Origin: an uncultured archaeon
GTDB taxonomy: Archaea > Asgardarchaeota > Thorarchaeia > Thorarchaeales > Thorarchaeaceae
Length of the DNA stretch: 60,948 nt
Direction: 5' to 3'
Assembly: GCA_964610875.1 (NCBI GenBank)
Contig: CAZSWP010000023.1
Location: forward strand, 1-60,948
The position numbers were made by a program, and so were the translations under genes. The notes under the pieces are model-generated. The model saw only the letters and a list, made by a program, of their open reading frames with translations. It was not told the origin of the DNA and ran no database searches. Below, in pieces: positions 19,615-32,340 of the stretch. Position 1 is the stretch's first letter, and each line of letters opens with the position of its first letter.

Positions 19615-19879
19615 GCTTTATTCATTCTAAGAGATACTAGGCTCTAGAATATGAAAATTATGAGTAAATTCGCTCATAGCTTTCGTCAGACTCTTGACCT
19701 CTCTGTTGGCGAATCTGCTGCAACTGTTGTGCCATTTCCTTCATCCTGCTTCGGATATCATCTGCTTGTTCTTCAAGTTCTGTTACATCCACATCAATTG
19801 GATATAACTTATCTAAAGCTTTGAGTATCATAGCAGCACCCTCTGGATCAGGCATTGAGGCTGTTGCTGGAGTTAGAAG

Positions 19880-20059
19880 GGTTGCTAGCAGCTCCAAAAA
19901 TCCTAGACATGTTTCAGGAGGGGTTTATATACTCAGACAAGGTACAAGAATACTGAGGTCAACCTGACACGTACCATGACCTCACAGAGCCATTCCCAGT
20001 ACCGTTTTTGGGAAGACAATGCTCTGGTGTCCAGAATTGTCTAGAGTACAATGAACGGT
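19880..20059 (+). mobile_element. Non-autonomous ~180-bp element, copy 1 (IS607-like GG core)
   Basis: GGT at both ends (19880-82, 20057-59); interrupts the PAC2 gene; homologous to 25890-26080 and 32237-32270. Confidence 0.8.
19954..20059 (+). ncRNA. Predicted structured RNA of element copy 1
   Basis: TTTATATA at 19924-31; stems TGAGGTCA/TGACCTCA, CAGAGC/GCTCTG, TTCCCAG/TTGGGAA; loop ACCGTT complementary to terminal AACGGT. Confidence 0.6.
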
Positions 20060-20532
20060 AAATCCAACCATCTCACGAATCAAGCTCTCACTTAAAACCG
20101 AACCAGATGTACCACTGATCAAGCCTTTCTTCAAGACCTCAAAGGTCTCATTCTCCTGCAACTCCTTCATTTTCTCTTCTTCTGTTGCGTATAGCACTTT
20201 ACGTTCTGAAGGAATTCTCCTGCTACAAGAAACAAACACTAGGGAATTTAAAGACTTTCAAAATCCAATGGATTCCTTTCGCAAGCGCAAAGGCATCATT
20301 GTTTCATCACTATATCAACTGCATCTCGGTTTTTCAAACACCCAGGTTTATAATTATCCTCAGATTCTCAGTCGGTTCAGTAATCCGAGATTATAAGTAC
20401 TTAACAGTCTCATTTTTTCTGCTTGAAGAATACTCTGATGATTAACTATGATTTTCATTGTTCAGAAGAAAGTATACAAAAAATAGCAAAACTTATTCTT
20501 GAATGGTAGAATTGGAAATCTAGGTAAGCATC

Positions 20533-25889: not shown

Positions 25890-25998
25890 ACCGTTCATTG
25901 TAAGTTGGACAAATCTGGACACCAAAGCTTTGTCCTCCCAGACAACGGTACTGGGACTGGCTTTGCGAGGGTAAGATCGTGTGTCAAGACACCCTCAC
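25890..25998 (-). ncRNA. Predicted structured RNA of element copy 2
   Basis: TTATATA at 26025-26019; stems GTGAGGGT/ACCCTCGC, CAAAGC/GCTTTG, TCCCAG/CTGGGA; loop TACCGTT; 3' end AACGGT. Confidence 0.6.
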
Positions 25999-26080
25999 TA
26001 AAATATCCTTACCGGTCCTATATAAGCACCTACACAACAATGTCAAGGTTTGTCCTGATTATTAGTATCTGTTCGCGACC
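25890..26080 (-). mobile_element. Non-autonomous ~190-bp element, copy 2
   Basis: GGT core at both ends on the minus strand; collinear with copy 1; inserted at the base of the hairpin GGTTCATC/GATGAACC that follows the 26092 gene. Confidence 0.8.
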
Positions 26081-26091
26081 CTGTTTTTCAT

Positions 26092-32236: not shown

Positions 32237-32340
32237 ACCGTTCATTGTAAGCTGGACAGATCTGGACACCGGTCAATAGAGCACATGAGGGTCATACTAG
32301 AAGAGATGATGAATACATCAAGTATATACGTGCTGTCAAA
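32237..32340 (-). mobile_element. Degenerate copy 3 of the element (right end intact)
   Basis: 32237-32270 matches copy 2 at 32 of 34 nt; residual ATGACCCTCA arm, TATATA and TTGACA further in; left end not recognisable. Confidence 0.65.

What the first reader, a model, noticed from the sequence alone, without database searches (positions are those of the whole stretch)
19924..20080. Each element has its own TATA box and a covarying double-pseudoknot RNA that reads into host DNA: candidate stand-alone guide RNA
Seen in sequence: TTTATATA (19924-31) in copy 1 and TTATATA (26025-19) in copy 2 lie 20-22 nt before the first stem, which is archaeal start-site spacing. Stems covary between copies: GAGGTCA/TGACCTC vs GAGGGT/ACCCTC, CAGAGC/GCTCTG vs CAAAGC/GCTTTG, CCCAG/TTGGG vs CCCAG/CTGGG. 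G-U pairs occur on this strand. The loop sequence TACCGTT is invariant and complementary to the terminal AACGGT, and loop GACAC can pair with GTGTC. Established: TnpB omega/reRNAs end at the element's right boundary, form a pseudoknot with their 3' end, and take their guide from the flanking DNA, with a TAM matching the left flank. Inference: these cassettes express ~105-nt scaffolds with locus-specific guides (copy 1 UAAAUCCAACCAUCUCAC, copy 2 UUCAUCUUUAGCAAUAUU, copy 3 UUCUAGUAGUGUGUUAAA) and a TAM near AGGG, for a trans-encoded RNA-guided protein. I do not recognise the fold as a described omega RNA. It is of added interest because IS607 TnpBs are the proposed source of eukaryotic Fanzor2.
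Basis: partly seen in the sequence, partly recalled or inferred. Interest (0 to 1): 0.9.

Follow-up and report, generated by a model that had tools for sequence, protein, structure and literature searches.

The report
Protein-free IS607 mini-transposon carrying guide-RNA scaffold
The flagged RNA is the right half of a roughly 190-bp protein-free IS607-type mini-transposon, present in dozens of copies in this Thorarchaeota (Asgard archaeon) genome, that joins a conserved archaeal promoter to a covarying, pseudoknotted RNA homologous to the guide-RNA end of a large TnpB nuclease gene, so it is most likely a stand-alone guide RNA, a known kind of element in a new lineage.

Summary
Window copy 1 (19879-20059, +) and copy 2 (26081-25890, -) are full copies of a 181-192-nt non-coding mobile element. 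"Copy 3" (32270-32237, -) is only a 34-nt right-end remnant with no promoter or scaffold.

- **Copy number:** the genome has about 50-75 copies, all ending exactly at ...ACAATGAACGGT and starting at (A/T)GGG|T.
- **Parent element:** the same ends flank an 8.6-kb element on contig C18. It encodes an IS607 serine-recombinase TnpA, an unknown 1833-aa ORF and a 731-aa TnpB-like nuclease with an intact D-E-D triad.
- **Spread:** a covariance model finds the RNA in 42 of 61 family genomes. It also matches the 3' end of the full-length tnpB genes fetched from eleven genomes.
- **Structure:** on 58 distinct sequences, four helices (P1-P4) and one loop pseudoknot covary, with 92% of cells paired and 0/500 shuffles reaching the observed values. 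The terminal pseudoknot pairs in 95% of cells but has no two-sided changes.
- **Promoter:** a TATA box is conserved about 30 nt before P1.

The anatomy (GGG at the left flank, CGG at the right end, a guide-adjacent pseudoknot) matches published IS607 omega/reRNAs. Stand-alone omega RNAs are already known, so this is a new member of a known kind. Expression and TnpB binding remain untested. First-stage notes record the same family on other contigs of this genome.

The parts
19879..20059 (+). Mini-transposon copy 1 (181 nt), an IS607-family non-autonomous element inserted into a PAC2-like gene on the opposite strand
   Evidence: The left edge |GGGT and right edge AACGGT| are shared by all copies. 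Removing the element while keeping one GGGT restores an ORF that aligns without gaps to orthologues (..GFTLLTPA..).
19878..19881 (+). AGGG at the left junction: predicted target/TAM motif containing the GG crossover core
   Evidence: GGG is present in 29 of 30 full copies, and position -1 is mostly A or T. Published IS607 TnpA targets and TnpB TAMs are TGGG/GGG (10.1101/2023.11.20.567912; 10.1101/2023.08.09.552727).
19902..19909 (+). CCTAGACA subterminal repeat of the left end, a putative TnpA-binding site. Most copies carry two about 10-11 bp apart.
   Evidence: Read directly from the left-end listing. The same motif occurs inverted in the right end (GTGTCCAGA, TTGTCTAGA at 20027-20046). Binding was not tested.
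19924..19931 (+). TATA box (TTTATATA), predicted archaeal promoter. The transcription start is inferred near 19950-19955.
   Evidence: A TTWWATA-type box lies about 25 nt before the model start in the consensus of 46 distinct copies from about 30 genomes, while the surrounding bases vary. A TTATAG box lies at a nearly equivalent position of the parent's left end, before tnpA.
19955..19983 (+). P1 hairpin (GAGGTCA / TGACCTC). Its loop carries GACAC (19966-19970).
   Evidence: All 7 pairs show changes on both sides; 90% of cells pair.
19985..20026 (+). P2 (CAGAGC 19985-19990 with GCTCTG 20021-20026), enclosing P3 (19994-19999 with 20008-20013)
   Evidence: P2: 97.6% paired, 4 of 6 pairs compensatory. 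P3: 89.6% paired, 3 of 6 pairs compensatory. The thermodynamically favoured local hairpin that competes with P2 has no covariation support.
20014..20042 (+). P4 (AGACAAT 20014-20020 with ATTGTCT 20036-20042). It crosses P2, giving an H-type pseudoknot.
   Evidence: 88.7% paired, with 4 of 7 pairs compensatory. This helix was not part of the model used to make the alignment.
20027..20031 (+). GTGTC, the 3' strand of pseudoknot PKa, pairing with the P1 loop GACAC (19966-19970)
   Evidence: A 5-bp complement is present in 48 of 58 distinct sequences (1000 shuffles: mean 38, maximum 45). Compensatory variants are GACAG/CTGTC and AACAC/GTGTT. Short-loop variants lack the pairing.
20054..20059 (+). 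Terminal AACGGT: the end of the scaffold and the recombination site. It is the 3' strand of pseudoknot PKb, pairing with the P3 loop ACCGTT (20001-20006).
   Evidence: 95.1% paired. Only one-sided changes occur, because the 3' end is nearly invariant. It is analogous to the guide-adjacent pseudoknot of ISDra2/ISXfa1 reRNAs (10.1101/2023.08.09.552727).
20060..20077 (+). Predicted locus-specific guide (AAATCCAACCATCTCACG), read out of the element into the disrupted PAC2-like gene
   Evidence: Flanks are unique at every copy. None of the 64 16-mer flanks recurs elsewhere in the genome. Its use as a guide is inferred.
25890..26081 (-). Mini-transposon copy 2 (192 nt): TATA 26025-26019, RNA about 26000-25890, predicted guide 25889-25872. 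It sits 10 nt after the stop of the 852-aa gene.
   Evidence: Model R1 scores it at 118.5 bits over the full length. Three other loci in the genome carry an identical RNA sequence.
32237..32270 (-). Right-end remnant (34 nt, GGTGTCCAGATCTGTCCAGCTTACAATGAACGGT). It is not a cassette.
   Evidence: Only 34 nt align. The upstream sequence is unrelated and has no P1-P3.

Best explanation
The region is the transcribed half of an IS607-family mini-transposon (MITE). An internal deletion of a TnpA/TnpB-bearing parent element left about 75-85 nt of left end and about 105 nt of right end. The left end keeps the recombinase sites and the tnpA-type TATA promoter. The right end is the omega/reRNA scaffold.

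The promoter should start an RNA just before P1. That RNA folds into P1-P4 with two loop pseudoknots, ends its scaffold at ...AACGG(T), and continues into the flanking host DNA as a 16-20-nt guide.

A roughly 720-aa TnpB-like nuclease encoded in trans by the full-length elements of the same genome would load this RNA. After TnpA excises the MITE, the restored empty site ((A/T)GGG + T + flank) carries the GGG motif next to the guide match and would be cut. The occupied site reads CGG and would be spared. Repair from another genome copy would put the MITE back, so the element is retained.

**Shown here:** element boundaries and the empty site, family membership of the ends, homology to tnpB-linked right ends, RNA covariation, promoter conservation, and the presence of an intact candidate nuclease.
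**Inferred:** transcription, RNA processing, loading by TnpB, and cleavage.
For: - **Boundaries.** All 48 blastn copies end at the same base, followed by unrelated flanks. 30 full copies begin at GGGT.
- **Empty site.** It is reconstructed with a single GGGT and aligns without gaps to orthologues.
- **Parent element.** The same left end precedes two IS607 transposase genes (NF033518, 175 bits against a cut-off of 110; MerR-type HTH plus resolvase). One of them belongs to an 8.6-kb element that ends in the related right end just after a 731-aa TnpB-like gene.
- **Candidate nuclease.** It matches PF07282 and NCBIfam guided_TnpB. D498, E610, D703 and the four zinc-ribbon cysteines are invariant in 10 homologues.
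- **Homology to tnpB ends.** Model R1 hits the 3' end of the full-length tnpB gene fetched from each of eleven genomes at 27-61 bits, with P3, P4 and the tail conserved.
- **RNA structure.** Covariation is strong and G-U cells outnumber A-C cells 146:62.
- **Promoter.** The TATA box is conserved in position.
- **Distribution.** The RNA is found in 42 of 61 family genomes. All 35 genomes with the TnpB-like protein also have it.
- **Match to published IS607 systems.** GGG TAM, CGG at the right end, a fixed first flank base, a pseudoknot between guide-adjacent bases and an apical loop, and TnpA repeats inside the scaffold (10.1101/2023.08.09.552727; 10.1101/2023.11.20.567912).
- **Precedent.** Stand-alone omega RNAs act in trans in other systems (PMC10691335; PMC10055086).
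Against: - There is no expression, RNA-end, binding or cleavage evidence.
- The 3' third of the RNA overlaps the putative recombinase sites and the crossover site, so its conservation alone says nothing about RNA function.
- PKb has no two-sided covariation.
- In this genome the tnpB-linked right end carries a simple hairpin where the MITE has the P2 3' strand and PKa, and it scores only 36.6 bits. Compatibility of MITE RNA and resident TnpB is therefore assumed, not shown.
- Seven genomes have the RNA but no detectable TnpB-like gene, and some with 36-57 copies hold only fragments. Incomplete assembly may explain this.
- The co-occurrence is expected for any MITE and its parent. It is also partly circular, because the model detects tnpB-linked ends too.
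- Alignment A2 was fitted to P1-P3, which leans the counts towards those helices.
Confidence: 0.68

Rival explanations
1. The structure is an evolutionary relic. The MITE keeps the old omega-RNA region only because it overlaps the TnpA-binding repeats and crossover site needed for mobilisation. The RNA, if made at all, has no function.
For: The last 35 nt or so hold the inverted CYWGACA-type repeats and the invariant terminal motif. PKb shows no two-sided changes. Some genomes hold many copies without an intact TnpB-like gene.
Against: P1, P2 and P3 lie outside the repeats yet keep pairing through many two-sided changes across subfamilies and genera. P4 and PKa covary with changes inside the repeat region. 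The TATA box is conserved although there is no gene left to express. A serine recombinase acting on double-stranded DNA needs no hairpins.
Confidence: 0.12
2. It is a functional structured RNA with a role other than guiding cleavage of the empty site. Examples: titrating or regulating TnpB or TnpA, acting with the 1833-aa protein of the parent element, or driving outward transcription that alters neighbouring host genes.
For: The promoter points out of the element into host DNA at every copy. MITE scaffolds differ from the resident tnpB-linked end in the P2/PKa region. Homologues of the 1833-aa ORF lie next to several other TnpB-like genes in this genome.
Against: Every positional feature (end at the boundary, GGG versus CGG, guide-adjacent pseudoknot) is the one expected of a guide scaffold. 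No guide matches any second site. Nothing links the RNA to the 1833-aa protein, which has no family assignment.
Confidence: 0.13
3. The stems are single-stranded DNA hairpins used for IS200/IS605-type (Y1 transposase) peel-and-paste transposition, as in PATEs.
For: PATEs are the best-known protein-free carriers of omega RNAs (PMC10055086). Both strands fold about equally well thermodynamically.
Against: No Y1 transposase (PF01797) was found in the genome, which is 95% complete. The ends are those of elements encoding an IS607 serine recombinase. The GG core sits at both junctions. G-U cells outnumber A-C cells.
Confidence: 0.03

Closest known systems
IS607-family TnpB omega/reRNAs (ISXfa1, C. 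botulinum IStron; 10.1101/2023.08.09.552727, 10.1101/2023.11.20.567912)
   Same: - The scaffold is encoded at the right end and stops at ...CGG at the boundary.
- GGG lies at the left-flank target, with a GG crossover core.
- The first flank base is fixed.
- A pseudoknot joins guide-adjacent bases to an apical loop.
- TnpA repeats lie inside the scaffold.
- A serine-recombinase TnpA has a MerR-type HTH.
   Different: - Here the scaffold stands without tnpB and has its own TATA promoter.
- It is about 105 nt (ISXfa1: 144 nt).
- It has extra crossing helices (P2/P4, PKa).
- It matches no Rfam family, RAGATH-18 included.
- Its candidate partner is about 720 aa and archaeal (Thorarchaeota), and the parent element is 8.6 kb with a 1833-aa extra ORF.
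Stand-alone omega RNAs and PATEs (PMC10691335, citing the 2021 OMEGA study; PMC10055086)
   Same: These are protein-free, mobilised elements that keep transposon ends and an omega-RNA scaffold. They are found in genomes that also hold effector-encoding copies and are proposed or shown to work in trans.
   Different: The described cases belong to IS200/IS605-type (Y1, single-stranded DNA hairpin) or IscB/IsrB systems in bacteria. This one is IS607-type (serine recombinase), archaeal, high-copy (about 50-75 per genome), and carries an internal archaeal promoter.
Archaeal MITEs derived from IS elements
   Same: It is a short non-coding deletion derivative that keeps both ends of a full-length IS. 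It occurs in many copies and is mobilised in trans.
   Different: There are no terminal inverted repeats and no target-site duplication, because recombination is IS607-type. The interior is a covarying RNA rather than filler.

Membership tests
IS607-family transposon (non-autonomous derivative) | The ends are shared with an element that encodes a small serine recombinase with an N-terminal MerR-type HTH (IS607 TnpA). | tested here: met
   Left ends at C18:16147 and C18:60599 directly precede 206- and 204-aa ORFs that match NF033518 (175 bits; cut-off 110), PF00239 and MerR/HTH_17.
IS607-family transposon (non-autonomous derivative) | A GG core dinucleotide lies at both junctions, and insertion leaves no target-site duplication and no terminal inverted repeats. 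| tested here: met
   Left junction G|GG|T and right junction C|GG|T are seen in 29-30 of 30 full copies. The empty site holds a single GGGT, confirmed against orthologues.
IS607-family transposon (non-autonomous derivative) | Subterminal short repeats lie in the left end and inverted in the right end (TnpA-binding sites). | tested here: inconclusive
   CYWGACA-type motifs are seen twice in most left ends and twice inverted in right ends. Binding cannot be tested.
TnpB omega/reRNA (OMEGA guide RNA) | The scaffold is encoded at the transposon right end, stops at the boundary, and the guide is supplied by flanking DNA. | tested here: met
   The boundary is sharp at AACGGT in all copies, followed by unique flanks. 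Use of the flank as a guide is inferred.
TnpB omega/reRNA (OMEGA guide RNA) | It is homologous or identical to the RNA region overlapping the 3' end of a tnpB gene. | tested here: met
   R1 matches the 3' end of the full-length tnpB gene fetched from each of eleven genomes (27-61 bits; own genome 36.6-36.7 bits).
TnpB omega/reRNA (OMEGA guide RNA) | A conserved secondary structure includes a pseudoknot between guide-adjacent bases and an apical loop. | tested here: inconclusive
   P1-P4 and PKa are supported by compensatory changes. The guide-adjacent PKb pairs in 95% of cells but shows only one-sided changes.
TnpB omega/reRNA (OMEGA guide RNA) | The TAM at the left flank matches the transposase target and differs from the right-end sequence (self versus non-self). 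| tested here: met
   (A/T)GGG lies at the left and ACGG at the right, the same GGG/CGG logic as ISXfa1 and CboTnpB in the literature. TAM use by the protein was not tested.
TnpB omega/reRNA (OMEGA guide RNA) | It is transcribed, bound by TnpB and directs DNA cleavage. | not testable with these tools
   No RNA run was listed, and no RNA-protein tool is available.
Rfam families, including RAGATH-18 (source of IS607 reRNAs in PMC11061315) | A match to the family covariance model. | tested here: not met
   There were no matches at gathering thresholds over the window, and none at E<=10 over 19850-20110.
PATE (IS200/IS605 non-autonomous element) | Mobilised by a Y1 HUH transposase through end hairpins. 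| tested here: not met
   PF01797 was not found in the genome, which is 95% complete. The ends belong to IS607-type elements.

The most novel reading that the evidence does not exclude
The MITE scaffolds may have evolved beyond the parental omega RNA. P2 plus the P1-loop pseudoknot replace a simple hairpin seen at this genome's tnpB-linked end. With their own promoters and 50-75 copies per genome (roughly 690 hits in 42 of 61 Thorarchaeota family genomes), they could form a dispersed guide library for the roughly 720-aa TnpB-like protein, or for the 1833-aa protein of the parent element. Such a library might serve a host-level role, for example RNA-guided binding or control at the loci they read into, rather than only transposon homing.
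Probability: 0.1. Interest if true: 0.85.

Novelty: new member of a known kind. Interest (0 to 1): 0.5.

Why it matters
A 2023 survey states that the biological role of stand-alone omega RNAs is unknown (PMC10691335). This family offers an unusually rich natural data set to address that. It has hundreds of promoter-equipped, protein-free copies across an Asgard archaeal family. The element ends are exact, and one insertion has a verified empty site. The fold is supported by covariation, and there is a clear candidate nuclease.

It also defines a short (about 105-nt) scaffold for a large, uncharacterised TnpB clade that so far carries only Thorarchaeota names. That is of interest for TnpB/Cas12/Fanzor evolution and possibly for editing tools.

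For genome annotation, it explains many small 'intergenic' repeats, contig breaks and at least one disrupted gene in these genomes.

Tried and rejected
- **Rfam.** No family matched at gathering thresholds or at E<=10 over the region.
- **Minimum-free-energy fold.** It proposes a local hairpin (UCUGG/CCAGA) inside P4 in place of P2. That hairpin pairs in only 62% of cells and does not exceed shuffles, so it was rejected. The single-sequence z-score is weak (-1.6) on both strands, so thermodynamics alone is uninformative.
- **Y1 transposase (IS200/IS605).** None was found in the genome.
- **Other TnpB-like genes.** The seven others in the genome (stop-to-stop frames of 379-625 aa) have different 3' ends (GGTGGAACACAGAAG... 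type). They are not the source of this RNA.
- **Trans targets.** None of the 64 16-nt flanks occurs a second time in the genome. No consistent T-run terminator follows the elements.
- **A tnpB ORF overlapping the MITE copies.** None of the 65 model hits examined has one.
- **The 1833-aa ORF of the parent element.** It has no Pfam, NCBIfam or PDB sequence match. Atlas scores (0.82) are too weak to name it.
- **The 731-aa protein against PDB sequences.** Only marginal matches to LaTranC were found (E about 0.003).
- **IS110 partner.** The ends match IS607-type elements.

Full report
**What is at the coordinates.** A TATA box lies at 19924-19931. A hairpin, P1, spans 19955-19983. A second helix, P2 (19985-19990 with 20021-20026), encloses a third, P3 (19994-19999 with 20008-20013). 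Two loop-to-3' complementarities are present: GACAC 19966-19970 with GTGTC 20027-20031, and ACCGTT 20001-20006 with the terminal AACGGT 20054-20059. Copy 2 has the same layout on the minus strand, with its TATA box at 26025-26019 and its 3' end at 25890. "Copy 3" shares only its last 34 nt (32270-32237) and has no promoter or scaffold.

**It is the right half of a mobile element.**
- A blastn search of the whole genome (124 contigs, 3.75 Mb) gives 48 copies. Every one ends at ...ACAATGAACGGT and is followed by unrelated sequence.
- A motif scan finds 64 right ends. Thirteen of them are cut by contig ends, and several contigs end in left ends, so the true number is about 50-75.
- Comparing copies upstream fixes the length at about 181-192 nt, or 221 nt in one subfamily. 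The left edge is |GGGT, preceded mostly by A or T. Copy 1 is therefore 19879-20059 and copy 2 is 26081-25890.
- Copy 1 interrupts a PAC2-like gene on the opposite strand. Deleting the element while keeping one GGGT restores a frame reading ..REMVGFTLLTPATA.., which aligns without gaps to orthologues (..DMIGFTLLTPAMA..). The boundaries and the empty site are therefore exact. There is no target duplication beyond the shared GG(T).

**Family of the element.**
- The same left end precedes two genes on contig C18 for 204-206-aa proteins. These match the IS607 transposase model (NF033518, 175 bits against a cut-off of 110), resolvase and a MerR-type HTH.
- One of them opens an 8.6-kb element (C18:16147-24729). 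It holds tnpA, a convergent 1833-aa ORF with no family match, then a 731-aa TnpB-like gene whose last codons run into a related right end (...TTACAATCAACGGT).
- A second, diverged paralogue of the whole element runs off the contig end.
- No Y1 transposase is present.
- The TnpB-like protein matches PF07282 and NCBIfam guided_TnpB. It keeps D498, E610, D703 and four zinc-ribbon cysteines invariant among ten homologues. All its named relatives are from Candidatus Thorarchaeota, so the organism is an Asgard archaeon.

**The RNA.**
- A covariance model (R1) was built on 29 distinct copies from this genome. It finds 47 hits here and roughly 690 in 42 of 61 genomes of the same family (13 of 16 genera). 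A blastn search had found no copies in 16 genomes sampled outside the family, one of the same order and 15 of the same phylum.
- On 58 distinct sequences from about 30 genomes, 92% of cells pair and 18 pairs show two-sided changes. No shuffle out of 500 reaches any of the five measures. Sliding the partner by one to three columns drops pairing to 32-49%.
- P1, P2 and P3 are each supported.
- P4 (20014-20020 with 20036-20042) is also supported. It crosses P2, which makes an H-type pseudoknot.
- The P1-loop pseudoknot PKa is present in 48 of 58 sequences (1000 shuffles: mean 38, maximum 45). It has true compensatory variants, GACAG/CTGTC and AACAC/GTGTT.
- The terminal pseudoknot PKb pairs in 95% of cells but changes on one side only, because the 3' end is nearly invariant.
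- G-U cells outnumber A-C cells 146 to 62, as expected for an RNA of this strand.
- The local hairpin preferred by energy minimisation has no comparative support.
- No Rfam family matches.

**Link to TnpB.**
- R1 also hits the 3' end of the full-length tnpB gene fetched from each of eleven genomes at 27-61 bits. P3, P4 and the terminal motif are conserved, and the P1 equivalent lies in the RuvC-III coding region.
- None of 65 MITE-type hits examined has an overlapping tnpB ORF.
- All 35 genomes with the TnpB-like protein also have the RNA. Seven have the RNA but no detectable protein. This is expected of a MITE and its parent, is partly circular, and is weakened by incomplete assemblies. It shows only that a partner is usually available.

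**Promoter.** In 46 distinct copies, the consensus shows a TTWWATA-type box about 25 nt before the model start, which is about 30 nt before P1. The neighbouring bases vary. The parent's left end has a TTATAG box at nearly the same position, ahead of tnpA. The MITE therefore probably inherited the tnpA promoter, and the deletion placed it in front of the scaffold. This last step is inference.

**Comparison with the literature.**
- For ISXfa1 and the C. botulinum IStron, the TnpA target and the TnpB TAM are (T)GGG, and the scaffold ends in CGG. The first flank base is fixed. A pseudoknot joins guide-adjacent bases to an apical loop, and TnpA repeats lie inside the scaffold (10.1101/2023.08.09.552727; 10.1101/2023.11.20.567912). 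Each of these features is seen here.
- Stand-alone omega RNAs that work in trans, and protein-free PATEs carrying omega RNAs, are already described (PMC10691335; PMC10055086).
- I found no paper describing this family, or TnpB elements in Thorarchaeota specifically.

**Verdict.**
- Near-certain: this is an IS607-type mini-transposon whose right half is a selected, structured RNA homologous to tnpB-linked right ends.
- Probable (about 0.68): the RNA is a stand-alone guide RNA used in trans by the roughly 720-aa TnpB-like nuclease to re-cut the empty site and so retain the element.
- Untested: expression and biochemistry.
- Class: a new member of a known kind, in a new lineage and with a new fold.
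- First-stage notes record the same family on other contigs of this genome. I reached the same anatomy independently and tested those claims here.

Noticed in passing
L042:148-8730 (= G000 contig C18:16147-24729): An 8.6-kb IS607-like element holds tnpA, a convergent 1833-aa ORF with no Pfam, NCBIfam or PDB match, and a 731-aa TnpB-like gene. A diverged collinear paralogue lies at C18:60599 to the contig end.
   Followed up: partly
G000 contigs C78, C3, C37 (loci L031, L033, L035): Homologues of the 1833-aa ORF (25-29% identity) lie next to three other TnpB-like genes of a different type. This suggests a conserved giant-protein/TnpB gene pair in this genome.
   Followed up: no
G000 contigs C3, C37, C25, C16 (loci L033-L037): Other TnpB-like genes (stop-to-stop frames of 379-625 aa) have long acidic or low-complexity C-terminal tails. 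Their downstream RNA-like region ends in GGTGGAACACAGAAG...GTTCACTC. That resembles the GTTCACTCA motif reported for Asgard Cas1-associated TnpBs (PMC10691335).
   Followed up: no
window 19661-20239 (minus strand): The PAC2-like gene split by copy 1 gives only about 140 aa even after the element is removed, against 263-273 aa in orthologues. It is also truncated at its 5' end. An intact paralogue lies on contig C1.
   Followed up: partly
G000 C15:76657-76791 and C61:13139-13273; C4:79034-79168; C18:47823-47957: Other sequences share only the last 20-60 nt of the right end. One is a different interior with the same terminal TTACAATGAACGGT. The other two are tnpB-type right ends without an intact gene. 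Several element types therefore seem to use the same recombination site.
   Followed up: no
window 26092-26081 and 25890-25860: Copy 2 sits 10 nt after the stop codon of the 852-aa surface-protein gene and reads out towards the next gene. Its promoter could affect neighbouring transcription.
   Followed up: no
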